A DNA stretch of 59,836 nt, taken from positions 1 through 59,836 of the IMG/VR virus record IMGVR_UViG_3300014838_000022. One strand, written 5' to 3'. The notes under the pieces were generated by a model, which made no database searches, was not told the origin of the DNA, and saw nothing but the letters and a program-made list of their open reading frames with translations. Origin of the DNA: a virus (taxonomy: Duplodnaviria > Caudoviricetes). Made by a program: the position numbers and the translations under genes. Shown here one piece after another: positions 1,184 through 59,721 of the stretch; the first letter of the stretch is position 1, and each line of letters begins with the position of its first letter.

Positions 1184-1257
1184 TGGAGCACCATGTCGGT
1201 ACTGGCCCGACTTCTTCTGCTTGGAAGGCAGATACATTACCTTTATGTTAATGGTGC
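1184..1257 (-). tRNA. tRNA-Gly(UCC), atypical T-loop
   Basis: GCACCAT/ATGGTGC-T-CCA acceptor; TCTGC-CTTCCAA-GCAGA; T-loop GCCAGTA instead of TTCRANY. Confidence 0.8.
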
Positions 1258-1627: not shown

Positions 1628-1700
1628 TGGAGCAACTAGTATGATTTTACATACATTTTCCACTTGGACAGTGGATGTCCTTTAATTAGACGACCATTGC
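1628..1700 (-). tRNA. Degenerate tRNA-Gly(UCC)
   Basis: TCCAC-TGTCCAA-GTGGA anticodon arm with G at position 33, mismatched acceptor stem, non-canonical T-loop, TCCA end. Confidence 0.6.
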
Positions 1701-4445: not shown

Positions 4446-4853
4446 TTAAGGTTCATCGAAAAACTTTAACGCTATGGCATACTTCTGACGAGCATGGTCC
4501 GAAGGCTGATCGTTTAAATTATCGTTAATATCCTTACGTTTAACCTCTAAAGCGTCAGGACTTGTCTTAATTGCTGTCCAATAATCCATATTGGACACCC
4601 CCTTGAGATGAGTCAAAAGACGCACAGCATCAATGATATAGCTCGGAAATCCCAATTTTATTAAATCCTCAATTGTAATGTGCGTATCTTCCGGAATATC
4701 ATGAAGAAATGCAATAGGCTTGAGACGGTCATCAACATTAAAAGCTATTCGGGTGGCGTGGCGGATTGCCCGAGAATCAAGTGGAAATGCACGATGAAGA
4801 ACTTCATCCGCAAGTTTAATCCATACACCTACTGTTTGTTCACTTGGTTTCAT
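4446..4853 (-). CDS. HD-domain hydrolase, RelA/SpoT (Mesh1/SAH)-like
   Basis: H...IAFLHDIPEDT...AVRLLTH...VKRKDINDN pattern. Confidence 0.75.
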   Translation of the reverse strand: MKPSEQTVGVWIKLADEVLHRAFPLDSRAIRHATRIAFNVDDRLKPIAFLHDIPEDTHITIEDLIKLGFPSYIIDAVRLLTHLKGVSNMDYWTAIKTSPDALEVKRKDINDNLNDQPSDHARQKYAIALKFFDEP

Positions 4854-6870
4854 CTTTGTGTAGTTTATACCAGTTTATAGTTTTTGTCAATCCTTCTTTC
4901 AAAGGAATTTGTGGACGCCAGTCCATATCAAATAAGCGAGACGTGTCTAGAATTCGCTTCGGAGTACCATCGGGCTTGGTTGTATCCCAAATTATTTCTC
5001 CCTTATACCCGATGATTTCAGCGATATTTCCCACAATATCTTTGATTGTGTAGTCCGTCCCATATCCAATGTTAATAATGCGTTCATCACTATATTTCTC
5101 CATTAAAAATATACAAGCATCCGCCATATCATCAACATAAAGAAACTCCCGCCGAGCATTCCCAGTCCCCCACACCGTGACAGTCGGAGCATCCTTTTCG
5201 GTTGCTTCGACAAAACGACGAATCAGTGCAGGGATTACGTGTGAGTAGGTAGGATGAAAATTATCATTCTCGCCGTAGAGATTGCACGGCATAACCGAAA
5301 TAAAATCACATCCATATTGTTTACGATACGCTTGACACATCTTTATACCCGCTATTTTTGCAATGGCATAGGCTTGATTGGTTGGTTCAAGCTCTCCCGT
5401 CAACAGTGACTCTTCTTTAACAGGGACTTCGGCATATTTTGGATATATGCAATTATGAACGGCAATTCCATTTGCAGTATAAGAATGATCGTTTTCTACG
5501 GATAAGTCATATACCATTTCCTCCGTATCAATATGATGAATATTTTTGACTTTTATTTCCAAAAAATCACCATTGAAAGTATGATTTATTCGAGGTTTAT
5601 ATGATGGATGAAATTCGTCTATGTTTTCATTCAATATTTCTATTATAAATTTTATTGCATCTAAACCTACTATTTTCACTTCCCATTGAGACCGTTGATT
5701 TACAATTCTATTTTCAATAACACATGTTGGAGATTTCTTTTTATAATAAATTGTAGAAAAAATTCGCAATTTCAGCAATAGCTGTTGAAGTTGATATATT
5801 AGCTCTTTTGATGTAGAGGATGCTGTGCAGAAATATTGATTGTTTTTTCGATCAGTTCTCATTTTCCAATGCCCATCCCCACGCCAATATCCTTTCAGAA
5901 ATTTGGAAATAATTTCATTGGAAGAATTCATCATAAATTGAGGAATAAATTTTGTATGTGCTTTATGAATTAAATCGTCATTATAAAATGATCTGAAAAA
6001 ATTACACATGTCCTCCCCATTTACACAGATTTGCCAAGACGTTCGTTTTTTATACGAATGTGGATTTATTCCGAACACAGTTGAAATTTTAGAACATATA
6101 TCATCTTTAAATACTTCGTCGTGTCCCGGATAAAAAAATATATTGTGATATGATCCCCGTTTTCCGGATGCGTTTTGTCTAAGACATCCTTCCGCTACAA
6201 AATATCCACTTAATTCTGCTAAATCAGTTGTTATTTTGCGTTGGGACATATTATCTACCATTTTCAATTCGTCCGCTAATGGAATTAAAATTAAATCTTC
6301 TTTAGTTATATCCTTTGCTGCCACAAATCCACGTTTTGTATAAATCAAATGTTCTGGAGTACATGATAATTTATTCCATCCTTTAAAACCAATGACAATA
6401 AGTTTTTTATTAAAAACATTTGTTGTTGTTTTATAAACCTTCTGAAATTTATGCTGATGAGTTAGGACATAATCTCCAATTTTTACATCCACAATGTCCG
6501 TTATTCCTCGTCGTGTTATTATCATGGTTCCCATTGGAAAACAAACGCTACCTAAAAAACACAATTTTTTCACATCATATTTTCTACACGCCTCGATAAT
6601 ATTTGTTTGAATGGCCAAATTATTATAAATGAATTCCGCTGGCATAACATTGTTGGCATGTATTCCTCCAACTTTAGCTGCTGCATCGAAGATATATTCC
6701 GGTTGAACGTTACCCATCATGACCTCGACATCATCCTGACAAGTTAAATCAGCGTCTTTTCGTGTGATCGGAGTTACATTGTCATATCCCATCACCTTTA
6801 AACGACGAATAAGAGAACTTCCTACCAGTCCATTAGCTCCAAATACTACGATTTTACTTTTAGGATTCAT
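4840..6870 (-). CDS. fcl: GDP-L-fucose synthase interrupted by an intein
   Basis: GANGLVG Rossmann motif, AAAKVGGIHAN, YAIAKIAG (YxxxK), PCNLYG, HVIPAL, WGTG.ARREF, KPDGTPKR. Confidence 0.93.
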   Translation of the reverse strand: MNPKSKIVVFGANGLVGSSLIRRLKVMGYDNVTPITRKDADLTCQDDVEVMMGNVQPEYIFDAAAKVGGIHANNVMPAEFIYNNLAIQTNIIEACRKYDVKKLCFLGSVCFPMGTMIITRRGITDIVDVKIGDYVLTHQHKFQKVYKTTTNVFNKKLIVIGFKGWNKLSCTPEHLIYTKRGFVAAKDITKEDLILIPLADELKMVDNMSQRKITTDLAELSGYFVAEGCLRQNASGKRGSYHNIFFYPGHDEVFKDDICSKISTVFGINPHSYKKRTSWQICVNGEDMCNFFRSFYNDDLIHKAHTKFIPQFMMNSSNEIISKFLKGYWRGDGHWKMRTDRKNNQYFCTASSTSKELIYQLQQLLLKLRIFSTIYYKKKSPTCVIENRIVNQRSQWEVKIVGLDAIKFIIEILNENIDEFHPSYKPRINHTFNGDFLEIKVKNIHHIDTEEMVYDLSVENDHSYTANGIAVHNCIYPKYAEVPVKEESLLTGELEPTNQAYAIAKIAGIKMCQAYRKQYGCDFISVMPCNLYGENDNFHPTYSHVIPALIRRFVEATEKDAPTVTVWGTGNARREFLYVDDMADACIFLMEKYSDERIINIGYGTDYTIKDIVGNIAEIIGYKGEIIWDTTKPDGTPKRILDTSRLFDMDWRPQIPLKEGLTKTINWYKLHKDETK
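5452..6543 (-). mobile_element. Intein with LAGLIDADG homing endonuclease (364 aa)
   Basis: Begins CFPMGT and ends VYDLSVENDHSYTANGIAVHN|C; internal LSGYFVAEG and FLKGYWRGDG motifs. Confidence 0.93.
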
Positions 6871-7022: not shown

Positions 7023-7397
7023 TCAATGAATGTAGATTTTTCGCTCACCGATGCCTAAACGGACAGTCTTCCGCAATCCTTGGGAAAATCCTTCACTTAA
7101 AAATGCACGGTCATCCACTAAACTAGGAGGAATCTCCCATCCAAATGAAATTTGAACGGAATCAGTTGGGAGATTGGGATAGCTATTACCTTTTTCACGC
7201 TGTTCAATATAATCCAAATCTTTTTTTCGTTGCTCATCAAGTCTTGCTTTTTCCGCTGCTTCCCATTGTTCTCGTTCAACTCGTTGTACTTTGACAACAT
7301 AATTGCACAAATCGTTTTCAGACATCCCTGCAAATTGTGGCAATTTTTTGAGTTGTGGAATATCCATATATTCCATATCGTTTCCATAGTAATTCAT
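7023..7397 (-). CDS. Hypothetical protein
   Basis: ORF coupled to the upstream ATP-grasp gene. Confidence 0.55.
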   Translation of the reverse strand: MNYYGNDMEYMDIPQLKKLPQFAGMSENDLCNYVVKVQRVEREQWEAAEKARLDEQRKKDLDYIEQREKGNSYPNLPTDSVQISFGWEIPPSLVDDRAFLSEGFSQGLRKTVRLGIGERKIYIH

Positions 7398-8179
7398 ACT
7401 TTTCCTTTCGTTGTTAATTCCATCCACCGAGACGAAATCATCTCAGCATAATGAATTGGATCAAGTCCATAGTTTCCCAAACAAATACCATCATTGATTT
7501 CTACCAATGCACTTAATGCATTAGACCCGGGAGATACCTTATGGTTAGCACCATCCGCTTGAATAATAACGCCCACGTCAAGTCCATACGCAATCGGTGC
7601 CACAGGTTTATATGCATCAATCATCTTCGTTACTTCAACATAAAATGGGGTCAACTGATAATCATATACTTCTTTTTGAAAGTATGGTTTCACTCCTACG
7701 ATTTCATTCTCGTGGACATAAATTCTCCATTCCGATACAAAGTTAACGGGATCACAAACAAAAACTTCATGCTCGGGATCAACCTTACCTGTTCGGATCG
7801 TATCAAGCAATGTGCTCAATACTGCTCCATTAAACTGCTTCTGAATGACAGGCTTGATGAACATATGTCCTTCCAATGCTGCTTCCCTAGCATCCGCCCA
7901 TTTTTTACGCTCCACATTGCGGTGCATAAAAGGCATAAGTTCGGTAGGATATGGATTAATGCCTACGTAATCCCACCCAAAGACTCGCTTTATTATTTTA
8001 CGACAGGAACCCACACCAGCAAACACGGGAGTCTCTGGCGTAACGTCGATAGTGTCTTCTTGGTCTTCCTCAAACTTTACTACTTCATATCCTATCTCAT
8101 CAAACCCCTTCCATGCAGCATAATAGTTTACATCAGGGAAATTTCCATTGCGAATTTTTACGTATGCTTTTTGCTTCAT
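7394..8179 (-). CDS. ATP-grasp domain protein (DUF4343/R2K-like)
   Basis: FIKP...KQFNG, VNFVSEWRIYV, AYGLDVG, LVEINDG..LGNYG. Confidence 0.8.
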   Translation of the reverse strand: MKQKAYVKIRNGNFPDVNYYAAWKGFDEIGYEVVKFEEDQEDTIDVTPETPVFAGVGSCRKIIKRVFGWDYVGINPYPTELMPFMHRNVERKKWADAREAALEGHMFIKPVIQKQFNGAVLSTLLDTIRTGKVDPEHEVFVCDPVNFVSEWRIYVHENEIVGVKPYFQKEVYDYQLTPFYVEVTKMIDAYKPVAPIAYGLDVGVIIQADGANHKVSPGSNALSALVEINDGICLGNYGLDPIHYAEMISSRWMELTTKGKV

Positions 8180-9903: not shown

Positions 9904-10169
9904 AATGCATTTTCCTCCGAATCTATGTATTGAATAAACTTCATAAATTCTTTGTATTTTTTCTCCAATTCATTTATTTTATCAACTTTTGCTTTCCATA
10001 CTATTCTTGTTCCAAGTGCAGGAGCAGAATATGTCAATTGTTATTCCAATGATTTTTTATAGTTATGAACATATTCGAATAATAACGCCAATTCCGATCC
10101 AAGATATTTATCTTCAACCTCGTGTTTTACATCTCCGTCATACGTGTGGTCGGTAAGCACCATTTTCAT
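9900..10169 (-). pseudogene. 90-codon gene with an internal TAA
   Basis: ATGA overlaps with neighbours at both ends; single in-frame TAA at 10041-10043. Confidence 0.6.
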
Positions 10170-11314
10170 AACACACCTTCCATTGGCTTACAGAACTGAG
10201 ACCATTTGGCGGGAGGTGAACATATAACACCAATCATACCACCTACAATGGCACAGTTGGTATCTACATCTCCGAATGCCATAGAGGTTTCGATAATAGC
10301 CTTCTCATACATTTCTTCAGACCCCTCGTCTTGAACTAAATGCTTGATGGTCAAGTAACAACACAAAGGCACCGTGTCTTGACACGTAACATGCGTACCG
10401 TTTCCAAGAATTTCTATCGCTTTTCCAATCGGAACATCATATCCCATTTTGCTTGCCTTGTCAATACCATTCCGAACTTGACCTTCGGGCACTCGACGAA
10501 GAAGATTTTCATACAATCTTTTTGAATCGGACTTAGGTGGAATTACTTCTGCTGCCACCAACGTAGTAATATCATATGCCAAAGACGTAATGGCAATAGC
10601 CCCGGCGATTCCTTCGGGATGACAATGAGTAACTTGTGCCTGTAATGCTGCTTCAGCAATGATTTGTTTATCAATACCCGACAATCCGGATTGTGCATCA
10701 TAAACCAACTGACCCGGCCACTGCGATCCCAAATAGGCTCCCAACGGGGATACACGCATGGCTGACCCATTGCCACAAGACCCTTGCAGTTCCGATCCAT
10801 CAGCGGTATCCTTCTGCCGTTGCAATACGATGTTGACTTCGTGCATTGCTGCCTTCAAATCATGTCCTTCGGATAGACTATGAACCAAACTATCAATATG
10901 CGAAGGCATACCTTCGGCTTTTGGCTTCATAAATTTATTTGCGTTAGTCCAAGGAGTTCCTTCATAGATGTCTCGAAGAACTTTACGAGTGTTAAGACCA
11001 TATCCATAGATTTTTCCATCGGGGTCTCGTGTCATATAACGGGTAGCAAACTCTATAGCGAGATTATCGGGGGATACTATAGGAGTTTTGGAAAATGCTG
11101 CTTTTCCTTTGAGATGGTTATACAAAACAATTGCCTCCTCGGTATCATCCGAGTATTGAAACTGATTGTGGAACTGGGTGAGTTGTCCTCCGGATTTAGC
11201 TACTCCTTCAGAGAGTGCTTTGAGGATGTCATGAGCGAAGTAAAGTTGACCCAAGTTGCCAACACAGTCTCCAACCCACAGTCCTTCTAGGGACTTTTTT
11301 GCGTAGTCTATCAT
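10166..11314 (-). CDS. ADP-ribosylglycohydrolase (DraG/ARH family)
   Basis: GDCVG, YSDDTE, GSCGNGSAMRVSP, VTHCHPEG, GDVDTNCAIVGG. Confidence 0.92.
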   Translation of the reverse strand: MIDYAKKSLEGLWVGDCVGNLGQLYFAHDILKALSEGVAKSGGQLTQFHNQFQYSDDTEEAIVLYNHLKGKAAFSKTPIVSPDNLAIEFATRYMTRDPDGKIYGYGLNTRKVLRDIYEGTPWTNANKFMKPKAEGMPSHIDSLVHSLSEGHDLKAAMHEVNIVLQRQKDTADGSELQGSCGNGSAMRVSPLGAYLGSQWPGQLVYDAQSGLSGIDKQIIAEAALQAQVTHCHPEGIAGAIAITSLAYDITTLVAAEVIPPKSDSKRLYENLLRRVPEGQVRNGIDKASKMGYDVPIGKAIEILGNGTHVTCQDTVPLCCYLTIKHLVQDEGSEEMYEKAIIETSMAFGDVDTNCAIVGGMIGVICSPPAKWSQFCKPMEGVL

Positions 11315-40144: not shown

Positions 40145-40965
40145 ACCATTATTATAACACGTTGTTTCAATCTGTCAACTGATAAAGATCATATTTCTTT
40201 GTGATCCCATCCCAATTCGCTATCAACCATTCCTTCAATTGGTTATACTGTTCCCGATCCCCAAAACCTTCAACTGCTTTCGCCAAGGTTACATTCTTCC
40301 ACCCGCAGCATTCATTAGCATCCTTGACGATCAATGTCACCCGCATCCCATCCTTCTTCCCTTCGGCTCCCATATAATTTTTCCATCCAATATACCCAAC
40401 GACTTTCGTGTCAACCTTGATGTCAACATAGATATGATCGAAAGACCGATACTTCCCCATCGGCTGATTGATTTTAAATGTGAGTCCCATAAATTTATTC
40501 AAGAAGAAAAATGGTGGTATCCGTCGAGATTCCCAATTGAGTCATAATGTTTTCGGACAAACAACGATGTGCCGCACAAACATCGGATGGACCTTCCGAC
40601 CACAACCTATATTGATTCCAATCGGCTATTCCTTTACCAATCAATGTTCCTGACCGATAATCATAAATAGATGCCATGCCATTGTCTGTAAAAGTGGATT
40701 CCGTAGTTAATCGTTTCATATCAACACAGTCGCACATCTGTATACTTTGTCAAATGATTTTCCTGTACTTATTATCTTTTATTCTTTATCGAGTGGCTTG
40801 GTGCTGCCGAGCGGCAGCGAGCAACCAAGCCTAGATAATTAATACTTCCTGAATATAGTACAGGAAAATGCTTTCCTTGTCAAGATATAATAACAATGTA
40901 TTAAGTACCGGATAATTAGTTTTTACATGTTTTGAAAACATCAACAAAATTCATTCGGCATATAT

Positions 40966-41219
40966 GTAGTGTAGTTTGAAGGAATATAATTAATAATACA
41001 CTACAGGTAGTAGGTATACCATTAGTAGTGTAGTTTGAAGGAATATAATTAATAATACACTACAGGTAGTATAACAATAGGTTGGTGTATCAATTATATA
41101 CACACATCCTGTAGTGTATATACCTTCTGTAGTGGTATGTCATCAATGGACTATACCTTATATGGTGTTATACTATTACGAGGGTATGATATATTTACAC
41201 TACACTACAGGATGTGTGT
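40966..41219. repeat. 47-bp direct repeat pair (40966-41012, 41025-41071) plus 19-bp perfect inverted repeat (41100-41118/41201-41219)
   Basis: Shared core TACACTACAGG in an AT-rich non-coding stretch. Confidence 0.85.
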
Positions 41220-41354
41220 CTAAATACTGGATATTATATGTTTGGGTCCGAAGTATCAACGTCGCAGACCCGGAGCCTGGTACAGGGAAATACTGGATAT
41301 TACATACTCGCCCGGGCGCATTAAATTGGTTCGGTGAAACGATGTGATTATAAT

Positions 41355-41416
41355 AAAAAAGAGCGGTTGAAAATAATAATTGGGGACTGAATCCCAAGAA
41401 CTAAAATCAACCGCTC
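41355..41416 (-). terminator. Long hairpin terminator closing the solitary-repeat-1 transcript
   Basis: GAGCGGTTGA...TCAACCGCTC followed by a T-run on the minus strand. Confidence 0.6.
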
Positions 41417-41602
41417 ATCAGACTTTAGACTCTAACTACTAATACACTCATTGCCTTTATCTCACGTTTACTTCTGTCACTGCGTTCCTTTCGGAATTGA
41501 ATGGCGTGGCTCTCCATTCATGATATACCTTCAATGAGTTTTTAATCCCCACTTAACCCTTGCAAACTTCCATTGCGGGAACCAAATTCTAATTGTGAGT
41601 CT

Positions 41603-41635
41603 GTTTCAATCCGCACCCCGGTCTCACGGGGTGAC
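41603..41635 (-). CRISPR. Solitary type I-C-like CRISPR repeat 1: GTCACCCCGTGAGACCGGGGTGCGGATTGAAAC
   Basis: 7-bp stem CACCCCG/CGGGGTG and 11-nt tail CGGATTGAAAC; promoter TTGATA-N17-TATAGT directly upstream. Confidence 0.8.
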
Positions 41636-41853
41636 ATAAATACTATAACATACTCTACCAAACTTATCAAATTTTATTTTGTGAGTCTCACCCTGAATAC
41701 ACATAACCCTTGAGACTCACAAAATCTATCTGTTGGACTAATTGTGCATGGCAACACAGTCAGAGGCTCTACTGCATGATCCTGCTAGTAACTTGCTGTA
41801 TTACGGGTCTGATCTATTACGTATTCAATCAGCATAGTCCAACAAAAATAAAA

Positions 41854-42045
41854 TTACTGTCCAAACAATGCCGATGTCTGGTCACCACTATAACGCACCT
41901 TCCCTTGGCTGTCAAGTGTCTTTTTGGTATTTCCATCATACCGTCCAATCGTCGCACCCGAGGCATCTTGAGCAATCACTTGGGAACCAGTATGCAACTT
42001 GTATCCCTTCGTGCGACCACTACCGTCTTTGATTGTTTCTCTCAT
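41854..42045 (-). CDS. Small hypothetical protein between the two solitary repeats
   Basis: ORF with its own TTGACA promoter. Confidence 0.55.
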   Translation of the reverse strand: MRETIKDGSGRTKGYKLHTGSQVIAQDASGATIGRYDGNTKKTLDSQGKVRYSGDQTSALFGQ

Positions 42046-42365
42046 GCTAAGAACATACCACAAATACTTGCGGTGTCAAATTTTATTTTATAACACCGTG
42101 AGCGTAATCTCAGTGCCCGATTCGAGCGGAAACAATACCCTCTCACATATGGGCGCTATATTCGTCCAAGCCTGAACCGCAATTCCTCTATCTGGTCCAG
42201 TGACCAGAAACAAATCAAAGATTGAATTTTTTGCCCAGTATGGATAATTACGTTGTTTAATCTCTTCTTTAGGCAACGTTATTTTCACCTTGGCATTTAC
42301 GCACATGTAGTTTTGGTCATTCATACGGTTATTCTAACACACTATTGGGACTTGTCAAATAAAAT

Positions 42366-42526
42366 TGGTGCCATCGGCTGGACTTCCACCAGCAAACGGG
42401 AGTCACCCCATTATTTTTCCATCCTTGAGTTTAACTGGAATCTAGCGACACTAGATTTGCTTTATCTTTCGAACCATTAAACTGTTAGGACGAAGTAACG
42501 TTGTATCTAGCACGTTACGCTATGGC
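42366..42526 (-). ncRNA. tRNA-like RNA (~161 nt) with a large structured insert
   Basis: Acceptor GCCATAG/CGATGGC-A-CCA and T-like arm GCTGG-TGGAAGT-CCAGC enclose several hairpins. Confidence 0.6.
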
Positions 42527-42580
42527 ATAAAATTTGGTATTAAGAGGATTTCACGTAAGAACCATTTAAGGTTAATTCGT

Positions 42581-42653
42581 TCCAATAAAAAGGGGGTGAA
42601 CCTTTACCTCCCCTCGTTCAAGAGGGGCGTGCTACCAGTTACACCATATCGTC
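42581..42653 (-). ncRNA. Degenerate tRNA-like element
   Basis: D arm TGGTGTAACTGGTAGCAC, stem CCCCTC-TTGAAC-GAGGGG, T arm AAAGG-TTCACCC-CCTTT; poor acceptor stem and no CCA. Confidence 0.5.
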
Positions 42654-42911
42654 GTTTGTCTCTTGCGGAACCACCCAAAGAGAGCTACTCCCTGGAAACC
42701 GCTTTGTTTGGCCTTACAAATTAAAATTAGTGTGCCAGTCACGGCATCTTCGTGCAATGAAACTTGGTGACTAGCCTATTTCATTATTAACCGATTCGCC
42801 CTTTATCCTTGGCATCTTACAATCACACGCAATACTGTATGCGGCAAGTTCGGCGACAAGACTAATCAAAAATTAAAGGTAGCAATTCAGTCTAATCCCA
42901 TTACATTGTAA

Positions 42912-42943
42912 GTTTCAATCCGCACCCGGTCTCACGGGGTGAC
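42912..42943 (-). CRISPR. Solitary type I-C-like CRISPR repeat 2: GTCACCCCGTGAGACCGGGTGCGGATTGAAAC
   Basis: One G shorter than repeat 1; promoter TTGACA-N16-TATAGT directly upstream. Confidence 0.8.
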
Positions 42944-43211
42944 ATAAATACTATAACACACTCCCCAAACTTGTCAAATTTTATTTTGTGTCCATTTCCC
43001 CCGAGGGTTAGGATAATACAGTGTTCCTGTCGCAATATTCATGATCCCCCCTGCCCCCCCCGGGAGTTCCCTTGGGGGAAAGGAAAATACTTCGTGGCCG
43101 CTATAAAGTGTTTTCTTACAAGGGGGTGCACTCTCCCCCCACCCCCAGGTCTCTCTATTCCAGTGCATAGGAACCCCATCATCCCCATCGGGGCCAAGTA
43201 TGATAAATGTT

Positions 43212-44078
43212 TTATTTGACATATTCAATGGTCTTGAATTTATTGGAGAGTTTCAATGGGGCGGGGTGCATCGTAATCTTTCCCGCTTTCGTGTTGATTG
43301 TTACCACAGCGGGCACGGTGACAGTTTTCTTTCCCTTGCCGTGATGAAAGTAATCAGCCTTGTAACCACCCTTCCCCTGTTTGCGTAATTTATATACAGC
43401 CTTCCCCGCAGCACTCCCGGCGGGCATTGTCCCGTGAATCAACAAACAAAAATCCTTGTCCCCCTTCCACAACAAAGAATCATCATGGTCTATTTCAAGC
43501 CCCAATTGCTTGGCTTCATCCTCTGAAAATACCACCTTGGCAAAACGCAATCCCATCATGTCAATCAAATCGTCAAACTTTCCTCCACGGGATGCCACCA
43601 ATTTTAAATTGGAAGGAATAACATTAAGCCGTTTTACCCAAAGCGGTAACATCTTGGAATAACCATAGAAAATCCAGTCCGGATGTTGCTGTGCTACCAT
43701 AATCCAAGCATCAAAATAGGCTTGATTGAAGAAATCCCCGCTCCCATGTATGCGGATACGTTTAACGTTTTTCTTGGTAAGCAAACTGGATTCAATCAAG
43801 TTAGCCATCCCAATTGCCGTATTGGCTTGTTTCAACAAGTCAAAATTGTTCCACCGTGACTCCCGTACAGTCTTGAACAAATTCTCCGGTAGTGTGGCAA
43901 AACACCGAAATTCTGTATTCGGGCCATCTGTTATTTTTCCAGTTTCTCTGTTAACACTTGAACGACAAAGGTTTGCCCCTAAACAAGTGTGTCCGGCGGG
44001 CAAAGAGAGGATAAACGTATCTCCGTCAAGTTTAGCGTTTCCTTTAGCAAATGATAATGTTTTATTTGTGTCAGTCAT
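43212..44078 (-). CDS. Gp88-like protein (radical-SAM-related phage family)
   Basis: GNAKL...LSLPAGHTCLGA..C...CFA...RIHGSGDFF...FYGYSK. Confidence 0.75.
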   Translation of the reverse strand: MTDTNKTLSFAKGNAKLDGDTFILSLPAGHTCLGANLCRSSVNRETGKITDGPNTEFRCFATLPENLFKTVRESRWNNFDLLKQANTAIGMANLIESSLLTKKNVKRIRIHGSGDFFNQAYFDAWIMVAQQHPDWIFYGYSKMLPLWVKRLNVIPSNLKLVASRGGKFDDLIDMMGLRFAKVVFSEDEAKQLGLEIDHDDSLLWKGDKDFCLLIHGTMPAGSAAGKAVYKLRKQGKGGYKADYFHHGKGKKTVTVPAVVTINTKAGKITMHPAPLKLSNKFKTIEYVK

Positions 44079-45961: not shown

Positions 45962-46893
45962 ACCTACACTATACGCATATATACATCAGTGTCAAATCCT
46001 ATTTCCATGTCCTTTATACCCCAAGAAGTCCCCGACCCTCAAACGAGAACATACTGCCCAGTATTTAGATCGAGCATATACTGGATATTATTTGCTCCTA
46101 AACAAAATACTGGATATTATTTACATGCGTAGATACAGTAATAAGTATTCATATGTATTCGGTGAGAATAAGCATTTTTTTATAGTATTTAGGAATTCGG
46201 TGACATTATTATAAAATACACCTCATTATATAATTAATCCAAAACAATCACACTGCGGTCTAATCTCACTTTCACCCAACCCGGCATTGAAATCATAAAA
46301 TCATGAAAATTACCAAATATAATAATGATATTTATAACGTATATACGTATCCTACCAAATAATTGGCATTTTGCTCCGTGATCCCATCAATATACTGCCT
46401 ATCATACATCTAAATACTGGATAGTATATGCTCATATACATATATTAGTATTTACCCCACATAATAAGTATACATATGTTCGGTGAAATGGCACACTTAT
46501 AAACATGTGCTTATGATCCAGTAAATAATGATTCATAAGTAATCGGTGAGAATCAACTGTTATTCTTCTGCCCTCTACCACTTCATACACGCCCTCGCCT
46601 TCGGCTCGGGCATATCATCCTATACATCTTTATCCCCATTCCAACATGCTACATTGTCTGCTCTTTTAAATGCCCCATATAGCAAATATGTTATCGCCGA
46701 GGGCGAAGCCCGAGGCGTATGTGCGTATGTATATGTTTGTTCCTACTAGAAAAGTATTTTTATATACTCCTCACATATGGTAAAACTAAACCTGTGGGTC
46801 TATATGGGTCACAATGGGGTAGGTGGGGGACTTATTATAACGTATCTACGTATTTGAAGGTGAATAAAGAAGTATGCACAATGATGTATTGAC

Positions 46894-54444: not shown

Positions 54445-56775
54445 CTATCTTAAATTCATCATTATTTTTCCAATTCCAGATTCGTCATCATAGTCCTCAT
54501 TCCACACATAATATTCTTTCTCATCAGTTGTGGTTATTATTTTTAAGTCTATTAACGCTTCAATTCGTTCAATCTTGGTGAACCACAGTTGAATGGAATT
54601 TCTTACAATTGCATTATAGGGAACTTTCTCTCCTGCTATAATCTTCTTTACCAAATCTTTATCAATAATTACAGTAGCAGTAGCATTGTCAATAACCTTA
54701 AAATTATTATTAATCTCTTCAAATTGTCGATCATCTTCCATCATTAAAAGTTTACTCCCCCTACCCTTAGATATGATACTTAACTCCATTCTAACTAATT
54801 CGGTGCAATACGATGGAGTGAGGTTATCGAATAGTGTACTATTAAAGACTTGAATGCCTGAGAGTAACTGTGGATTAGCAGTGAACATATGATTTATTCC
54901 AACTAAGCTTGGAGACCAATGATAAATATATACTGTAGCGTCCGTCGAAATGCTACCACGATTAATTCTTCCCATGAATTGAAATAGATTAAGTGGGCCA
55001 CATTTCTCTCGCCATCCCACATCAAATGATATATCAACCCCACACTCAATGGTTGAAGTAGCTAATACCAAGACCTTCTTGGATTTATCTTTAAGTGATG
55101 TTTTTATATTCTCAAGTATCTTCTCTTTATGTGTAGGAGTCTGATACCCCGTTAGTTCGTATATTATCCATTTATCCAATCCATCATACCTACGTAAGAT
55201 ACTTGCTAATACTGAAGCATTGTTAATAGTATTACAAACAACCAATCCACTATGCTTAATGGACATTTTGTCGAGAATATGATTGATGAAGGAATCTAGG
55301 TTCATAGCATCTTTAATTATGTCAATCTTTACTCGTTTGTGTTCGAGGTCTTGGAACATTTTATAGGTAGACTTAGCAATGATGTCATGAACTTCTATCT
55401 CGGATTCGTCGAATATATTCCAATAATATGCCGATGTTCCTGAGCTAAAAATGAAAGAGCAATTAAAATTTATAGATAAGTCTTTGAGTAAAGGAAGGAT
55501 ATACTGCCAGTATTCATGTGGCATACTCTTGTCAAATTCATCGAAAAAGAACACCGAGTTGGCGAACCAATGAAGTTTTCTACAGCGACCGGGGCGATTG
55601 TTGGCTAATGATTCGAAGAATTGAACTGCGGTTGATACATTAATGGGAGCATTCCATTTGTTGGAATGTTTTCGCATCCACAACTTTTCAAACTCACATT
55701 TACTGTGAATTTCATTGACGTTGTTTTCATTTTCTCCGTCCATCAATATTGACTTGCGATACTCATCAACGGTTTGACTTATAATGTTGGTGAAGGGAAT
55801 GATATTATAAATTCTGTCAGCATTTCTCTGTGCTGCCAATCGTAACATATAGGTTAATCCACTGAATGTCTTTCCTAATCCTACCGAGCCATCTAATGGG
55901 AAGAATGCGACATCATTGGGTATAGGTTCATTGAGACATGTTGATCGCAACTGTTGGCGGCTTTTCAATCGTTCGGGCGACACATCTGATGGCTTAAGAC
56001 GGTCAATGTGAAGGTTAAGTTTCTTTAATCGTTCGAGGGGAACCAGTTTAGTAAATTCAAAGGGATCGTATTTTTGATTATAAAATCTATCAGTATCAGT
56101 ATGATCTGCGTCCACTAAGCAAGAAAAAGCAATTCTTATTTGCAATGCCGATAACGGTATTTTACGACTAATATTAGTTCTCGGGACATATACAATACTA
56201 ACAACCGAGTCATGAATATTCTCATACTCATCAATATGAGCATTGATGTAGTCCATCACCGATTTCTCCGGACACTTAATCTTATATGTCTCTAAGATGT
56301 CTCGGTTATCCCTAAACAATCTATTATTGATTTTGTAATAGTAATTTGTTCTAATAGGATTGGATTTGTCTATGCATTCTTGAGCCATTGGATTTTGATT
56401 CTTAAGACCAAGATGGTGGGCATGAACCAGGAAGGCAGCTACAAGATAAGAAAGATTTTCGGTTTGTTCATACTTTTTAATTAGAATAGCAACACCAGCG
56501 TCCACATGATTGAGCATCTTGGCATCTTGATTGTCATCATTATCACCATTCAAGATGACTTGAGCCGATGCATCTAACTTCCCAATGTCATGATAAAGCG
56601 CAGCTAAGGCCACTACATCCATCAAGAAAGCGACCTTAGAAGGACTGAGGTTGGTCTTCCGCAATGCATCCGTAATAAAAGTGCGTCCGTCGTTATATAC
56701 ATTAGTAATGTGTTCACAATAGGTCTGCGTGATCATTACACCACGTTTTTTGTCAGATGAGTGTGCCGCTATCAT
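54445..56775 (-). CDS. cas3: Cas3-like HD nuclease-SF2 helicase
   Basis: AHS, H..., YHDIGK, NHVDAG, HHLGL and FSCLVDADHTDT (HD domain); GLGKT, IPFTNIISQT, DEFD, SGT, TIECGVDISF and QFMGRINR (helicase). Confidence 0.88.
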   Translation of the reverse strand: MIAAHSSDKKRGVMITQTYCEHITNVYNDGRTFITDALRKTNLSPSKVAFLMDVVALAALYHDIGKLDASAQVILNGDNDDNQDAKMLNHVDAGVAILIKKYEQTENLSYLVAAFLVHAHHLGLKNQNPMAQECIDKSNPIRTNYYYKINNRLFRDNRDILETYKIKCPEKSVMDYINAHIDEYENIHDSVVSIVYVPRTNISRKIPLSALQIRIAFSCLVDADHTDTDRFYNQKYDPFEFTKLVPLERLKKLNLHIDRLKPSDVSPERLKSRQQLRSTCLNEPIPNDVAFFPLDGSVGLGKTFSGLTYMLRLAAQRNADRIYNIIPFTNIISQTVDEYRKSILMDGENENNVNEIHSKCEFEKLWMRKHSNKWNAPINVSTAVQFFESLANNRPGRCRKLHWFANSVFFFDEFDKSMPHEYWQYILPLLKDLSINFNCSFIFSSGTSAYYWNIFDESEIEVHDIIAKSTYKMFQDLEHKRVKIDIIKDAMNLDSFINHILDKMSIKHSGLVVCNTINNASVLASILRRYDGLDKWIIYELTGYQTPTHKEKILENIKTSLKDKSKKVLVLATSTIECGVDISFDVGWREKCGPLNLFQFMGRINRGSISTDATVYIYHWSPSLVGINHMFTANPQLLSGIQVFNSTLFDNLTPSYCTELVRMELSIISKGRGSKLLMMEDDRQFEEINNNFKVIDNATATVIIDKDLVKKIIAGEKVPYNAIVRNSIQLWFTKIERIEALIDLKIITTTDEKEYYVWNEDYDDESGIGKIMMNLR

Positions 56776-56910: not shown

Positions 56911-59721
56911 ATGACTAAACCATCCACAGCAGATATTCCACCACAAGACGTAAAATCAACCAAAACCACGACTCTCAAAGTCATAGGTAATGATGTTAAA
57001 CTTAGATTGTTCAGCTTATTTGATCCATTTACACTTATTTGTTCTGACATCAAGGATAAAATATATCAATTGAAGGATGACGAGTCAACAGTAAAAATCT
57101 ACAACGATTATGTGGATGAGGGTAAGCGAGGAAGGGCTGCTGCAACCACAGTATTCACCAAAATCAAAGAGAAAAAAACCCCATACGTGAAGAATTCGTT
57201 CACAGGAAAATATAAATCAAATCCTATATTTCCTATCTATAAATGTCCTAAGAAAGGATTAAACTTTGCCACGGCTGGATGGCATTACACCAGTAATGCC
57301 GCTATTCACACTCAACTAGATTCATTGAATAAATGTGATAAAATTTGTAATGACGAGTTCAATAAGTTAAAGAAAGAGGTTGAAGACTACGATGAAACTC
57401 TTCATGAAGACTACGATGAACAATTGGTGGCAGATTTCTATGAATTCATTCAAGACACTATGTTATCGGGATGGAGTTTTGATGGGAACTTTCAAAAGTT
57501 CTTTGTCCAAGTAATGTTGCCGGGTCTTAAGAATGGAACTATCATCACCAAAGGCACCTATCGGCTTGGTGATAAAAAGAAAAGGTATTCTTTCTATACC
57601 CCCAAGTTGGCCGAATCCATTGCATCCAATTCTAAGTTTTGGGACTTGATGGCAAATGACACTACAGTTAGTTACTTCAACGCTAATCATTTACTCCAAC
57701 AGAAAAAAGAACATGCTGCCTATTCTAAGACAACCTTGGTTAAGGCTCAAGTTCGTCCCGTGTTCGCAAACAATGGCGTTAAGTTTTCTATTTCGTGTGA
57801 TGGCAGAATGGCCTATATGGCATTCAAGCTTCCTGCTGTCGATGGGAATCCTTCAGAATTGCTAAATGTTCCATGTGCCTATCAAAAATTTTACTTTGGT
57901 GGCGATAAGGCTGGGACTCCCCGTAACAGTTATTTGTCGGGATTAACCATTGAAGATAACAAAGATGGCACATATATTTGCCATTACTCGGTTAACAACA
58001 AACGTCCCCAAACCGCCCAGTTAAACGAGTGCTTTTTAAGAATGGTGGTTAAGAATAAAAATTGGGTCCAAAAATATTTGGATGGCACATTGACCAAAAA
58101 GGATGGTCCTATCAACGCCAGCTATTTCGAGTTCTATTTCGATTTATGCATGGGAGTAGTCGAAGCCCCTATTCATGATCTTACCAACAATGAAGTCTTC
58201 AAGAAAGGAGGCATTCGGGGAGGCATTCGGGCGTTTCATAGTTCTGCTTATCCCGAACGCAAAGACTTCGATAATCAATCAAGCATTCCAGTTCAGTTCC
58301 GTTGTGTTGTAGATAAGCCGTATAGACTCATGGGAGTTGATTTGGGTCAACGAAATCCGTTTGCATATTGCATCAAGAATAATGATGGCAGTGTCGTAGC
58401 CTCGGGACATATGGTTGGGGCTTCCAACGATAACTATAAAAAATATATCGAGTTCGGGAATGAGTGTGAGTATATAATTCAACTCATTAAAGAAACCAAG
58501 AACTATCTGTATGGAGACGACGATGCTATTGATGCAGATAACTATGCACGAGTGAAATCTACGTTACCCTTTAAATCCTATTTGTTGTATCTTACATCTA
58601 AACGTGGATTGGTTAATGTAGAGGATCAATCCAAAGGGCAGACGCATCTGCTACGAGCAGATGATGGATGGATGATAAAGGATTTGGTATATAAACAAAC
58701 AAAACAATATCATATTCTAAATGACGGACGTTATACTGACAATGATTGGAGGCAGACTCTTTATTGGGCGGATGCTATATCTCGGTTCATAGACCTTCAG
58801 AAAACATATAATAATTTCGGGTCTTATTACGATCATGCGAAGAAGACTAAAGTCAATGGAACGGGAAAAGGATTTTGCTCTACTTACTATGACCACATCA
58901 ATAATTTGAATAAGGATACATTTAAGAAATTTTGTTTTGAACTCTTGCCTATTATCAAGAAATACGGGGTATCATTGGTATGTGTTGAGAAATTGACTTC
59001 TATGTATGGTGACAAACTGAGGTCTGCGGATGATAATCGCATGTATAATATGTGGCCGGTTGGTCAACTCAAAACTTTCCTCAAAGGTGTGTTGGCACCA
59101 TATAAAGTAGGCGTAATTCAAGTTTCAGAGCAAGATACGTCTCAAATCGTCGATGGTAAATGGGCATATCGCCCCAAAGATGGAAATGCCGCTAATAATC
59201 TTTATTATTTAGATGTGGCTAACAAGATTCAATCGGTTCATTCTGATGAACAGGCAGCATTTAATATTGTGGACCGGGCTTTAACCAACCATACTAATTT
59301 ATATAGTTTATACATGGTAAATGTATTAGATAGCTATTGGGTGCCGAATCAAACATGGAATCCCAAAGAAATCGGTGGCAAGCTAAGTCGTGGGTTTCTT
59401 ACTAAATTGTATGGTACATCCAATGTGGTATTCATAAAACAATATAATAAGCTTATCAGGACAACCATTGGAATTAAAGAACTCAAAAAAATGGTTGGTA
59501 AGAGCAAGCCACTAGGCAAGGGCTATATGTATAGAGTGAATGAGACCGAATGGATTGACGGAGAATCTAAACAAAAATTGGTTGACTCTATTTGCGAGAG
59601 GCTAGGTGATACATCATCCATGCTCACCTCCTCGCAAGTCACAACTTCCACAAAATCAGTAGTTTGTGTAGAGATTGGACCCCCCAATAAGAATTCAACC
59701 GTGAAATCTTGTGAGGGTTGA
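56911..59721 (+). CDS. cas12: Type V CRISPR effector-like RuvC nuclease (Cas12b-like), 936 aa
   Basis: RuvC-I RLMGVDLGQRNP, RuvC-II LVCVEKL followed by RSADDNRMYNMW and TSQ, RuvC-III VHSDEQAAFNI; all three acidic residues present. Confidence 0.85.
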   Translation: MTKPSTADIPPQDVKSTKTTTLKVIGNDVKLRLFSLFDPFTLICSDIKDKIYQLKDDESTVKIYNDYVDEGKRGRAAATTVFTKIKEKKTPYVKNSFTGKYKSNPIFPIYKCPKKGLNFATAGWHYTSNAAIHTQLDSLNKCDKICNDEFNKLKKEVEDYDETLHEDYDEQLVADFYEFIQDTMLSGWSFDGNFQKFFVQVMLPGLKNGTIITKGTYRLGDKKKRYSFYTPKLAESIASNSKFWDLMANDTTVSYFNANHLLQQKKEHAAYSKTTLVKAQVRPVFANNGVKFSISCDGRMAYMAFKLPAVDGNPSELLNVPCAYQKFYFGGDKAGTPRNSYLSGLTIEDNKDGTYICHYSVNNKRPQTAQLNECFLRMVVKNKNWVQKYLDGTLTKKDGPINASYFEFYFDLCMGVVEAPIHDLTNNEVFKKGGIRGGIRAFHSSAYPERKDFDNQSSIPVQFRCVVDKPYRLMGVDLGQRNPFAYCIKNNDGSVVASGHMVGASNDNYKKYIEFGNECEYIIQLIKETKNYLYGDDDAIDADNYARVKSTLPFKSYLLYLTSKRGLVNVEDQSKGQTHLLRADDGWMIKDLVYKQTKQYHILNDGRYTDNDWRQTLYWADAISRFIDLQKTYNNFGSYYDHAKKTKVNGTGKGFCSTYYDHINNLNKDTFKKFCFELLPIIKKYGVSLVCVEKLTSMYGDKLRSADDNRMYNMWPVGQLKTFLKGVLAPYKVGVIQVSEQDTSQIVDGKWAYRPKDGNAANNLYYLDVANKIQSVHSDEQAAFNIVDRALTNHTNLYSLYMVNVLDSYWVPNQTWNPKEIGGKLSRGFLTKLYGTSNVVFIKQYNKLIRTTIGIKELKKMVGKSKPLGKGYMYRVNETEWIDGESKQKLVDSICERLGDTSSMLTSSQVTTSTKSVVCVEIGPPNKNSTVKSCEG

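What the first reader, a model, noticed from the sequence alone, without database searches (positions are those of the whole stretch)
42366..42911. Repeat 2 heads a ~550-nt non-coding train of structured RNAs
Seen: downstream of repeat 2 on the minus strand there is no credible ORF. Instead there is a series of stem-loop units separated by AATTTT-type linkers like those in the tRNA cluster, including a degenerate tRNA (42581-42653) and a CCA-ending tRNA-like RNA. Inference: this is a polycistronic ncRNA operon combining a CRISPR guide or decoy with tRNA mimics, possibly matured by RNase P and 3' trimming. It could include a scaffold (tracr/scout) RNA for the Cas12-like protein.
Basis: partly seen in the sequence, partly recalled or inferred. 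Interest (0 to 1): 0.7.

Follow-up and report, generated by a model that had tools for sequence, protein, structure and literature searches.

The report
Phage CRISPR-repeat decoy heading tRNA-like RNAs
A giant-phage fragment from peat carries a gene-free stretch, present in RNA libraries, that starts with a lone copy of a bacterial CRISPR repeat and continues into tRNA-shaped RNAs, which looks like a non-coding counter-defence and processing unit rather than a guide for the phage's own Cas12-like enzyme.

Summary
The observation largely holds. 42366-42911 (minus) has no ORF above 41 aa. It holds four AATTTT linkers, a degenerate tRNA (42581-42652; Rfam 29.4 bits against a threshold of 29) and a 161-nt CCA-ending RNA, unit C (42366-42526), closed by an acceptor/T-arm-like helix (z -3.55, 0 of 200 shuffles). 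The other segments fold no better than shuffles.

Repeat 2 is a solitary type I-C-class repeat that starts at the predicted +1 of a strong promoter. Promoter plus repeat form an ~81-nt cassette present twice in the window. The repeat-1 copy is missing in one contig of a co-occurring strain.

The unit C ends (ATTTTAT|GCCATAG ... ATGGCAYCA|ATTTT), preceded by an aberrant tRNA-like element, recur in a relative (L005/L006) without any repeat. So the train is a fusion of two separable elements.

RNA-library contigs cover 42579-42980. One is a closed 150-nt cycle (42722-42871), a hint of a circular or head-to-tail RNA.

The tracr/scaffold idea fails. Relatives of the Cas12j-like protein use an unrelated 36-nt repeat, and no anti-repeat is present.

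Best reading (0.45): a Cas5d/Cascade-competing crRNA mimic co-transcribed with tRNA-like RNAs processed like tRNAs. No protospacer or covariation was found, and the host is unknown.

The parts
42950..42977 (-). Sigma-70-type promoter P_R2 (TTGACA, 16 nt, TG-TATAGT). The predicted +1 lies about 7 nt downstream, at the first base of repeat 2. The -35 box overlaps the stop codon of the upstream 84-aa ORF.
   Evidence: 11 of 12 consensus positions, TG extension. ORF84 is conserved in L007 and L005. A homologous promoter stands at the same place in L005.
42912..42943 (-). Solitary CRISPR repeat 2 (32 nt, GTCACCCCGTGAGACCGGGTGCGGATTGAAAC), type I-C class. It has one G fewer than repeat 1, so its hairpin is weaker.
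   Evidence: Rfam CRISPR-DR9 21.5 bits, below the gathering score of 45. It shares its 5' GTCACCCC and its 3' GGGGTGCGG(A/G)TTGAAAC with an array on a Cas5d-bearing contig. Fold -8.0 kcal/mol, z -0.36.
42872..42911 (-). 40-nt unstructured, spacer-like tail directly after the repeat.
   Evidence: MFE -1.9 kcal/mol, open centroid, z +0.52. No protospacer was found.
42722..42871 (-). Unit A, 150 nt, bounded by AAUUUU linkers. Its ends can pair (AUUAGU/ACUAAU).
   Evidence: Closed 150-nt cycle in RNA-library contig X15 record 3 (joint 42871->42722, 40 letters on the shorter side). Fold no better than shuffles (z +0.09). No homologue found.
42653..42721 (-). Hairpin segment (GCGG...CCGC enclosing CCAGGGAG/CUCUUUGG).
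   Evidence: MFE -19.1 kcal/mol, z -1.30, 23 of 200 shuffles fold as well.
42581..42652 (-). Aberrant tRNA-like element. D arm with GG and a T arm are present. The anticodon loop has 8 nt, the T loop is UUCACCC, the acceptor stem has 5 of 7 pairs, and there is no CCA. A U-run follows.
   Evidence: Not closer to the phage's own tRNAs than shuffled sequence (z <= 1.9).
42527..42580 (-). A/U-rich spacer ending in AAAUUUUAU, which serves as the 5' leader of unit C.
   Evidence: The same leader, ATTTTAT, precedes the unit-C-like element in L005.
42366..42526 (-). Unit C, 161 nt. It has an acceptor-like stem (GCCAUAG/CGAUGGC, 6 of 7 pairs) stacked on a T-arm-like hairpin (GCUGG-UGGAAGU-CCAGC), discriminator A and CCA, then AUUUU. 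Three further helices fill the core.
   Evidence: z -3.55, 0 of 200. (0 of 47 background windows). Both ends are conserved in L005/L006. Not covered by any of the 4 RNA libraries laid.
42331..42358 (-). Next promoter (TTGACA, 16 nt, TG-TAGAAT), which drives the 78-aa ORF at 42088-42324 and ends the non-coding unit.
41593..41678 (-). Second copy of the promoter + solitary repeat cassette (repeat 1 at 41603-41635, 33 nt). It is flanked by the 10-nt direct repeat AGACTCACAA and is absent from one contig of a co-occurring strain.
   Evidence: X16 record 5 skips 41593-41678.

Best explanation
The window is about 17% of a giant phage from peat or permafrost. 42366-42977 (minus strand) is an early-type, promoter-driven non-coding transcription unit made of two separable elements.

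(1) The head. This is an ~81-nt promoter + solitary repeat cassette whose RNA starts at the first base of a type I-C-class CRISPR repeat. I infer that the Cas5d-type endoribonuclease of a type I-C system (the host's, or a phage-borne variant outside the window) binds the hairpin and cuts at its 3' base. That would leave an 11-nt CGGAUUGAAAC handle on a 40-nt unstructured tail. Such a strongly expressed crRNA mimic would compete with real crRNAs for Cascade subunits. This works like an RNA anti-CRISPR, but it keeps the 5' handle.

(2) The body. This is a tRNA-derived non-coding module: an aberrant tRNA-like element followed by unit C. Unit C's acceptor/T-arm minihelix, ACCA end and AUUUUAU/AUUUU flanks copy those of the phage's real tRNA genes. 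I infer that it is released by RNase P and 3' trimming as a stable 161-nt RNA.

The AAUUUU linkers are the cutting points. The 150-nt unit A between two of them accumulates, and at least some of it is joined head to tail. A phage Rnl-type RNA ligase may do this.

Shown: the sequence anatomy; the duplication and strain variability of the cassette; the presence of 42579-42980 in RNA libraries; the cycle contig; the conservation of the unit C ends.

Inferred: Cas5d binding and competition; RNase P processing; ligase-made circles; any decoy role of the tRNA mimics.
For: Head.
- The promoter matches 11 of 12 consensus positions, and the repeat starts 7 nt after the -10 box, at both copies.
- The repeat class is tied to type I-C. 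An Eggerthellaceae MAG array has the repeat GTCACCCC...GGGGTGCGG(G/A)TTGAAAC, and Cas5d (TIGR01876, 185 bits against a cut-off of 85) lies on the same contig.
- No array, Cas5d or Cas7c is present in the window.
- Other solitary repeats of this class occur in relative L007 and in contig L004, each followed by a terminator.
- Passages read in PMC10651486 say that viral solitary repeats often lie just downstream of a promoter, that they act as RNA anti-CRISPRs, that a non-targeting crRNA also lowers interference by competition, and that Cas5 processes type I-C crRNA.

Body.
- Rfam finds the tRNA-like element.
- Unit C folds with z -3.55, against 0 of 47 background windows at that level.
- CCA+ATTT follows the 5 tRNAs and one cloverleaf RNA of the cluster and also unit C.
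- L005/L006 (gp88 68% identical) carry a 121-nt cloverleaf-like element, then ATTTTAT|GCCATAG...TTATGGCATCA|ATTTT, then a promoter. The two changes in the 3' strand turn the A/G mismatch into A-U and G-C into G-U.

Transcription.
- RNA-library contigs in 3 of 4 runs cover parts of 42579-42980.
- A closed 150-nt cycle covers 42722-42871 in 1 of 4 runs.
- RNA ligase family PF09414 is present in 3 of 5 phage records searched (the window's own and four relatives). T4 Rnl1 (PF09511) is present in 1 of 5.
Against: - No relative shows the whole train. blastn of 42366-42943 against 5 related records gave only chance-level hits plus the short anchors. blastn of 41400-43211 against the 14 gp88 loci gave nothing for 42376-42911. 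A covariance model of unit C found only itself (hits in 1 of 5 records, the window's own).
- No covariation could be measured. The four differences seen in another strain's contig do not inform the folds.
- Unit A and most other segments fold no better than shuffles.
- Unit C is not covered by any of the 4 RNA libraries. Contigs cannot give strand, ends or level, and DNA carry-over is possible. X16's contig runs upstream of the predicted start, to 42980.
- The cycle rests on one contig in one run.
- In the characterised RacrIF1 the active product lies upstream of the cut and lacks the handle, so the architecture here differs.
- The host and its CRISPR type are unknown. No exact copy of the repeat was found in an array: 2 loci matched in genome contigs, neither with this loop, and viral and metagenome contigs gave 0 matches.
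- Repeat 2's hairpin is weakened by a 1-nt deletion.
Confidence: 0.45

Rival explanations
1. Relic. The stretch is a decaying piece of a tRNA-gene cluster and other debris that happens to lie behind a strong promoter. Its RNAs are by-products without function.
For: - The tRNA-like element is broken in the acceptor stem, anticodon loop and T loop.
- Unit A and the hairpin segment fold like shuffles.
- Nothing was found in four more distant relatives, including a complete 368-kb genome.
- The unit C core differs greatly in length between the window (147 nt inside the stem) and L005 (about 33 nt).
Against: - Both ends of unit C, with their leader and trailer, are kept at 68% protein identity while the surrounding intergenic DNA is not alignable.
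- Unit C's stability is beyond 47 of 47 background windows.
- The ACCA end and linker are intact.
- RNA-library contigs cover 42579-42980 (3 of 4 runs), and one is a closed cycle bounded by two linkers.
Confidence: 0.25
2. Real guide. Repeat 2 plus the next 35-40 nt is a single-repeat crRNA that directs a type I-C Cascade (the host's, or a phage-borne variant outside the window) against a competitor phage or a host gene. The rest of the train only supplies the 3' processing.
For: - Because the predicted start is at the repeat, the cut product would keep a full 11-nt handle.
- The tail is unstructured and of spacer length, ending at a linker that is the 5' end of the cycle.
- Passages read in PMC7162821 say that huge phages can carry host-like repeats and may use host Cas proteins, and that two huge phages combine a type I-C variant with Cas12j.
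Against: - No protospacer was found. Each 35-mer, searched with every sixth base free, gave 0 matches in IMG/VR. INPHARED gave only hits with E >= 2. The window itself gave only matches of 12 nt or less.
- There is no second repeat to give the 3' hairpin.
- In L007 the 21 nt after the repeat duplicate the 21 nt before it, which looks like an insertion footprint and not a spacer.
- The host genome was not searched.
Confidence: 0.15
3. The region encodes the crRNA and/or a tracr or scout scaffold of the phage's own Cas12j-like nuclease (56911-59721).
For: A Cas12j19/Cas12X-like protein (E 2.8e-9) and a Cas3 lie 11.5-14 kb away. No array for them is seen in the window.
Against: - Two of the 4 related loci carry arrays of a 36-nt repeat ending in TTGACAC, with no likeness to repeats 1/2.
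- That repeat is absent from the window (0 matches at up to 3 mismatches).
- Only 8-mer complementarities fall in the region (E 16-19).
- In L021 the array starts about 100 nt after the gene. The window ends 115 nt after its gene, so the array probably lies beyond the window.
Confidence: 0.03
4. The stretch encodes one or more very small proteins.
For: Short frames exist (41 and 32 aa, TTG starts).
Against: There are stops in all three frames, with the longest stop-to-stop stretch 47 codons. Reading, I saw no ATG-led frame longer than 14 codons and no ribosome-binding site. No relative shares the sequence.
Confidence: 0.02

Closest known systems
Viral solitary repeat units / RNA anti-CRISPRs (Racr; Camara-Wilpert et al. 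2023, PMC10651486; passages read)
   Same: A single CRISPR-repeat mimic in a phage intergenic region, directly behind a strong promoter. It is not part of an array. No Cascade genes are in the window. The repeat class (type I-C) is one for which a Racr (RacrIC1) was validated.
   Different: Transcription is predicted to start at the repeat itself. The cut product would therefore keep the 5' handle and a long tail, whereas the active RacrIF1 product lies upstream of the cut and lacks the handle. The tail is about 545 nt and contains tRNA mimics instead of ending soon after the repeat (compare L004 and L007). The cassette is duplicated within the genome. Function is untested. The paper's supplementary lists of IMG/VR repeats could not be opened, so I cannot say whether this repeat is already listed.
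Host-like repeats and compact arrays of huge phages (Al-Shayeb et al. 2020, PMC7162821; passages read)
   Same: A giant phage with tRNAs, a tmRNA and a Cas12j-type effector. Its repeats are of a class other than that effector's. The paper proposes that host Cas proteins are used, or that the host CRISPR system is silenced.
   Different: Here there are single repeats with their own promoters and not arrays. Cas3 is paired with the Cas12j-like gene and not with a type I-C variant. No target was found.
Non-tRNA stable RNAs inside phage tRNA clusters (T4 'species 1 and 2' RNAs), and minihelix substrates of RNase P. Recalled from memory; not checked in any call beyond the abstract listing of PMC12710915 on the RCCA motif.
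   Same: Small RNAs are co-transcribed with or next to tRNAs. Their paired 5' and 3' ends, stacked T-arm-like hairpin and RCCA 3' end make them look like tRNA to processing enzymes. Their function is unknown.
   Different: Unit C lies 40 kb from the tRNA cluster, behind a CRISPR-repeat mimic. It has a 147-nt core between the two strands of the stem. No sequence relation was tested.
RNA-ligase-made circular small RNAs (archaeal C/D box sRNAs circularised by an ATP-dependent Rnl; PMC9014305, abstract in the search listing only)
   Same: A structured small RNA whose ends lie next to a closing helix appears as a head-to-tail joint in RNA data. Relatives of this phage encode Rnl-type ligases.
   Different: The host is presumably bacterial, judging by the sigma-70-type promoters and the tmRNA. 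The evidence is one assembled cycle contig. No ligase gene is in the window.

Membership tests
tRNA (Rfam RF00005), for 42581-42652 | Score at or above the curated threshold over the full model | tested here: inconclusive
   29.4 bits against 29, but only model positions 7-64 match and the acceptor stem is not matched. ARAGORN default finds no gene here.
tRNA (Rfam RF00005), for 42581-42652 | 7-bp acceptor stem, 7-nt anticodon loop, T loop with the conserved A at the fifth position (A58, recalled), and a 3' CCA or a site for it | tested here: not met
   5 of 7 acceptor pairs with both end pairs mismatched. The anticodon loop is the 8-nt CUUGAACG. The T loop is UUCACCC. No CCA is present.
tRNA-like minihelix / RNase P substrate, for unit C 42366-42526 | Acceptor stem stacked on a T-type hairpin (about 12 bp together), single-stranded RCCA 3' end, and a leader like those of the genome's tRNAs | tested here: met
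   GCCAUAG/CGAUGGC (6 of 7 pairs) abuts GCUGG-7 nt-CCAGC, then A-CCA. CCA+ATTT as at 6 sites of the tRNA cluster. Cleavage itself was not tested.
Solitary repeat unit / Racr | Sequence and fold like repeats of a known CRISPR subtype | tested here: met
   It shares 8 nt at the 5' end and 16-17 of the last 17 nt with a repeat of an array lying on a contig with Cas5d. The repeat 1 hairpin folds at -13.5 kcal/mol, z -2.5. The Rfam CRISPR-DR9 score is only 21 against 45.
Solitary repeat unit / Racr | Solitary, intergenic, promoter directly upstream, no adjacent cas operon | tested here: met
   The two copies lie 1308 nt apart, each with its own promoter. No array is present. No Cas5d or Cas7c is in the window. 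Cas3 lies 11.5 kb away but belongs with the Cas12-like gene.
Solitary repeat unit / Racr | Host carries the matching CRISPR-Cas subtype; the RNA binds Cas proteins and lowers interference | not testable with these tools
   The host is unknown. No exact repeat was found in GTDB species genomes, IMG/VR or JGI contigs.
tracrRNA / scoutRNA of a type V system | Anti-repeat complementary to the effector's CRISPR repeat, encoded near the effector or array | tested here: not met
   The family repeat from L019/L021 has no match in the window, and only 8-mers fall in the region. The region lies 14 kb from the gene.
Canonical crRNA / mini-array guide | Repeat-spacer-repeat unit with a spacer that matches a target | tested here: not met
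   A single repeat only. 0 protospacers in IMG/VR, INPHARED or the window. The host was not searched.
Circular RNA | Head-to-tail joint in RNA that is absent from DNA | tested here: inconclusive
   The joint 42871->42722 occurs in one RNA-library contig (X15; 40 letters on the short side; contig length equals 150 plus a 30-letter overlap that I take to be k-1 for 31-letter words). No DNA run was laid. For 41676-41847 the pieces have only 28 letters on the short side, below the tool's 31-letter rule.

The most novel reading that the evidence does not exclude
The unit is a multi-decoy anti-defence RNA operon. A crRNA mimic and several tRNA-shaped RNAs are cut out at AAUUUU linkers and then covalently circularised by a phage Rnl-type ligase. 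This gives exonuclease-resistant decoys that soak up the host's type I-C Cascade subunits and its tRNA-directed defence nucleases early in infection. The promoter+repeat cassette moves within and between phage genomes and arms whatever lies downstream.
Probability: 0.1. Interest if true: 0.85.

Novelty: new variant of a known kind. Interest (0 to 1): 0.5.

Why it matters
RNA anti-CRISPRs are recent, and only short solitary-repeat RNAs have been characterised. This case differs in three ways:
- the repeat sits at the transcript's 5' end, so it would keep the crRNA handle;
- it rides on a small duplicated, strain-variable promoter cassette;
- it is fused to tRNA-shaped RNAs.

That gives a testable example of how phages assemble non-coding counter-defence units, and of what the poorly understood non-tRNA RNAs of phage tRNA regions are for. 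The hint of circular small RNAs in a bacterial virus would be unusual if confirmed. It also clears away a tempting but wrong link to the neighbouring Cas12j-like nuclease.

Tried and rejected
- Close relatives by DNA. INPHARED blastn of 41500-43300 gave no match. The repeat patterns gave 0 matches in IMG/VR and 0 in JGI contigs.
- Single-protein locus searches with gp88 and the Cas12-like protein in IMG/VR found none. The Cas12 alignment in IMG/VR also found none.
- Homologues of the train. blastn against 14 gp88 loci and 5 whole records, plus a unit C covariance model on 5 records, gave nothing beyond the short L005/L006 anchors.
- MAFFT of unit A against L007 6825-6975 gave only random-level identity. 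MAFFT of unit C against L005 aligned only the 5' end.
- Rfam at E <= 5 on 41500-43600 and at E <= 1 on the whole window showed no ribozyme, riboswitch, Y RNA or other family in the region. Rfam on L005, L007, L008 and L010 gave no tRNA hit for the L005 cloverleaf.
- ARAGORN with introns and low thresholds gave only implausible genes with 700-1700-nt introns. Its tmRNA mode found nothing in the region.
- Ancestry of the tRNA-like element among the phage's own tRNAs: no alignment beyond shuffles.
- Pfam and PHROGs on neighbouring small ORFs (78, 69 and 30 aa and others) gave no family, so no anti-CRISPR protein link could be made.
- RtcB was found in 0 of 5 phage records searched (the window's own and four relatives).
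- RNA libraries. No contig covers 42204-42554 (unit C) in the 4 runs laid. This is no evidence of absence.
- Contig ends at 42911 and 42579 in X17 are read-length contigs and were not used as RNA ends.
- X16's loose end at 42980 first looked like a cassette border. It is better explained by a divergent C-terminus of ORF84.
- Earlier notes of this scan: nothing on record.
- Literature searches for Cas12X/Cas12j19 and for phage tRNA-like RNAs gave nothing usable.
Full report
CONTEXT

The window is a whole IMG/VR virus record of 59,836 bases that CheckV rates 17% complete. It carries:
- five tRNAs found by ARAGORN and a sixth found only by Rfam;
- a tmRNA;
- a 1967-aa ORF;
- a GP88-family protein with 2090 homologues, some on contigs of 259-364 kb.

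Near-identical DNA occurs in peat and permafrost metagenomes from many studies. It is therefore a fragment of a giant phage. The genes around the finding lie on the minus strand, behind repeated sigma-70-type promoters with A/T-rich upstream parts (AAAATAAAATTTGACA...; family D1, 7 copies).

OBSERVATION

Between repeat 2 and the next promoter (42366-42911) the minus strand has no ORF above 41 aa. The longest stop-to-stop stretch is 47 codons. Read 5' to 3' on the minus strand, with exact coordinates, the anatomy is:
- promoter 42977-42950;
- repeat 2, 42943-42912;
- a 40-nt unstructured tail, 42911-42872;
- unit A, 42871-42722;
- a hairpin segment, 42721-42653;
- a tRNA-like element, 42652-42581;
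- an A/U-rich spacer, 42580-42527;
- unit C, 42526-42366;
- the next promoter, 42358-42331.

Four AATTTT linkers punctuate it.

The tRNA-like element reaches Rfam's tRNA threshold only just, and only for model positions 7-64. ARAGORN needs lowered thresholds to find it, and then shows an 8-nt anticodon loop and a poor acceptor stem.

Its ends form a tRNA-type acceptor stem stacked on a 5-bp/7-nt hairpin, followed by A-CCA and AUUUU. These are the same flanks as the real tRNA genes. It folds far better than shuffles (z -3.55, 0 of 200) and better than 47 of 47 background windows.

The other segments are not more structured than chance. The 'train of structured RNAs' is therefore real for two of its cars and unproven for the rest.

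THE HEAD

Repeats 1 (41603-41635) and 2 have the build of type I-C repeats: GTC, a 5-7-bp G+C stem, and an 11-nt tail ending in ATTGAAAC. I first recalled that build from memory and then tested it. The only array in 185,579 species genomes that matched the pattern has the repeat GTCACCCCTCGCTAGAGGGGTGCGG(G/A)TTGAAAC, and it lies on a contig that encodes Cas5d above the curated cut-off.

Each repeat begins 7 nt after a -10 box. The RNA should therefore start with the repeat.

Promoter plus repeat form an ~81-nt block that is nearly identical at the two sites, while the flanks are unrelated. The block begins with the last codons of ORF84, the gene upstream of repeat 2. ORF84 and its promoter are conserved in relatives. 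Site 2 is therefore the source, and site 1 is a copy inserted with a 10-nt target duplication. In one RNA-library contig of another strain the 86 nt of site 1 are simply missing.

Relative L007 has another repeat of this class, with a compensated stem (ATCCC/GGGAT), flanked by a 21-nt duplication and followed by a terminator. A 4.9-kb contig, L004, has one followed by a terminator. Solitary repeats of this class are thus mobile, recurrent features. The long tail behind repeat 2 is the exception.

WHAT THE HEAD PROBABLY DOES

According to the passages I read in PMC10651486:
- viral solitary repeats often sit right behind promoters and act as RNA anti-CRISPRs;
- RacrIF1 works through the product upstream of the Cas6f cut, which lacks the handle;
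- a non-targeting crRNA also lowers interference by competition;
- Cas5 is the processing enzyme in type I-C.

Here the cut product would instead carry the 11-nt handle and a 40-nt open tail. I therefore read it as a crRNA mimic that competes for Cascade.

A true guide is the main alternative, but I found no protospacer. The host remains unknown.

THE BODY

Relative L005/L006 (gp88 68% identical) carries, after its ORF69 homologue:
- a 121-nt cloverleaf-like element with an oversized anticodon loop and a long variable region;
- then ATTTTAT|GCCATAG...TTATGGCATCA|ATTTT;
- then a promoter.

These are the same leader, the same 5' strand, a 3' strand with two pairing-compatible changes and the same trailer as unit C, around a much shorter core. 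The order 'aberrant tRNA-like, then unit-C-like, then promoter' therefore predates the fusion with repeat 2.

More distant relatives, including a complete 368-kb genome, show nothing.

I infer processing by RNase P and 3' trimming from the minihelix, the RCCA end and the flanks. What the product does is open. It could be a decoy for tRNA-directed host nucleases, a stabilising 3' end for neighbouring messages, or nothing at all.

RNA EVIDENCE

Four metatranscriptome runs were laid as Logan contigs.
- Contigs of 3 of the 4 runs cover parts of 42579-42980. None covers unit C.
- One 180-letter contig (X15) consists of 42832-42871 followed by 42722-42861. That is a closed 150-nt cycle plus a 30-letter overlap, which I take to be k-1 for 31-letter words. 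Its junction lies exactly at two AAUUUU linkers.
- A similar 171-172-nt cycle at 41676-41847, just upstream of the repeat 1 cassette, appears in two runs of different studies. That element folds very stably (z -4.27).

Contigs cannot give strand, ends or amounts, and no DNA run was laid. I therefore treat circular RNA as a hint.

RNA ligase families occur in 3 of 5 records searched (the window's own and four relatives; PF09414) and in 1 of 5 (T4 Rnl1). RtcB occurs in 0 of 5. None of the three occurs in the window.

THE CAS12 IDEA

The 936-aa protein matches solved Cas12j19/Cas12X structures by sequence. It has 8 homologues. In 3 of 4 related loci it is paired with the same Cas3. In 2 of the 4 it sits beside arrays of a 36-nt repeat ending in TTGACAC.

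That repeat is absent from the window, and no anti-repeat lies in the region. The train is not that system's guide or scaffold.

VERDICT

This is a new variant of a known kind: a solitary-repeat RNA of type I-C class, on a mobile promoter cassette, fused to a partly conserved tRNA-mimic module. Interest is moderate. It would rise if the circles or a decoy function were confirmed.

Supplementary tables of PMC10651486, which list solitary repeats found in IMG/VR, could not be opened. This repeat may already be catalogued there.

Noticed in passing
window 41676-41847 (-): A 172-nt ORF-free element lies between the stop of ORF69 and the repeat 1 cassette. It folds very stably (MFE -55.9 kcal/mol, z -4.27, 1 of 200 shuffles fold as well). 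In RNA-library contigs of two runs from different studies it appears as a 171-172-nt closed cycle, at the highest depth of the stretch laid (87 in X15). The short side of the joint has only 28 letters. It shares a short AGACCCGT stretch with the L005 cloverleaf element.
   Followed up: partly
window 54445-56775 (-) and 56911-59721 (+); L019, L020, L022: An HD+helicase Cas3 and a Cas12j19/Cas12X-like protein form a divergent pair that is kept in 3 of 4 related metagenome loci. In 2 of the 4 loci (L019, L021) arrays of a 36-nt repeat ending in TTGACAC stand beside the genes. A type V effector steadily paired with Cas3 is unusual. The window ends 115 nt after the Cas12-like gene, where L021 has its array.
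   Followed up: partly
window 1628-1700 (-) and 1187-1257 (-): Inside the tRNA cluster, a 73-nt RNA folds as a cloverleaf with UCCA+ATTT (z -2.98) but is called by neither ARAGORN nor Rfam. A sixth tRNA (Rfam 51.4 bits) is missed by ARAGORN.
   Followed up: partly
L007 9770-9833; L004 1527-1555: Further solitary type I-C-class repeats. In L007 the repeat is flanked by a perfect 21-nt direct repeat that includes the stop codon of the upstream gene. In L004 a terminator follows it after about 20 nt.
   Followed up: partly
L005 6604-6780 (same in L006): A 121-nt cloverleaf-like element has a 7-bp acceptor stem, a GGAGG-UUCAAAU-CCUCC T arm, an 11-nt anticodon loop and a variable region of about 50 nt. 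A 49-nt unit-C-like hairpin ending in AUCA follows it. Neither is called by ARAGORN or Rfam.
   Followed up: partly
window 42974-43228 (-): An 84-aa ORF overlaps the end of the gp88 gene. Its stop codon lies inside the -35 box of the repeat 2 promoter. It is conserved in L007 (36% identity, E 3e-9) and L005 (26%, E 2e-4).
   Followed up: yes
window 41425-41517 (-) and 41380-41397: Downstream of repeat 1 lies a possible 30-aa ORF, in a stretch that is 76.5% identical over 81 nt to L005/L006, followed by a terminator-like hairpin. The old promoter seen in L005 at this place (TTGACAATTTTGGTTCCCGTAGTATAAG) looks decayed in the window.
   Followed up: no
window 40960-41310: An ORF-poor stretch holds a perfect 47-nt direct repeat (40966 and 41025) and five copies of an ATACTGGATATTA-type motif (also at 46073-46430). 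It may be a regulatory or replication site.
   Followed up: no
window 4840-6870 (-): An NAD-dependent epimerase/dehydratase gene is interrupted by an intein with a LAGLIDADG domain (Pfam Epimerase 3e-61, Intein_splicing, LAGLIDADG_3).
   Followed up: no
window 10166-11314 (-), 7394-8179 (-): An ADP-ribosylglycohydrolase (E 9e-31) and an ATP-grasp protein of the R2K clade (E 2e-29).
   Followed up: no
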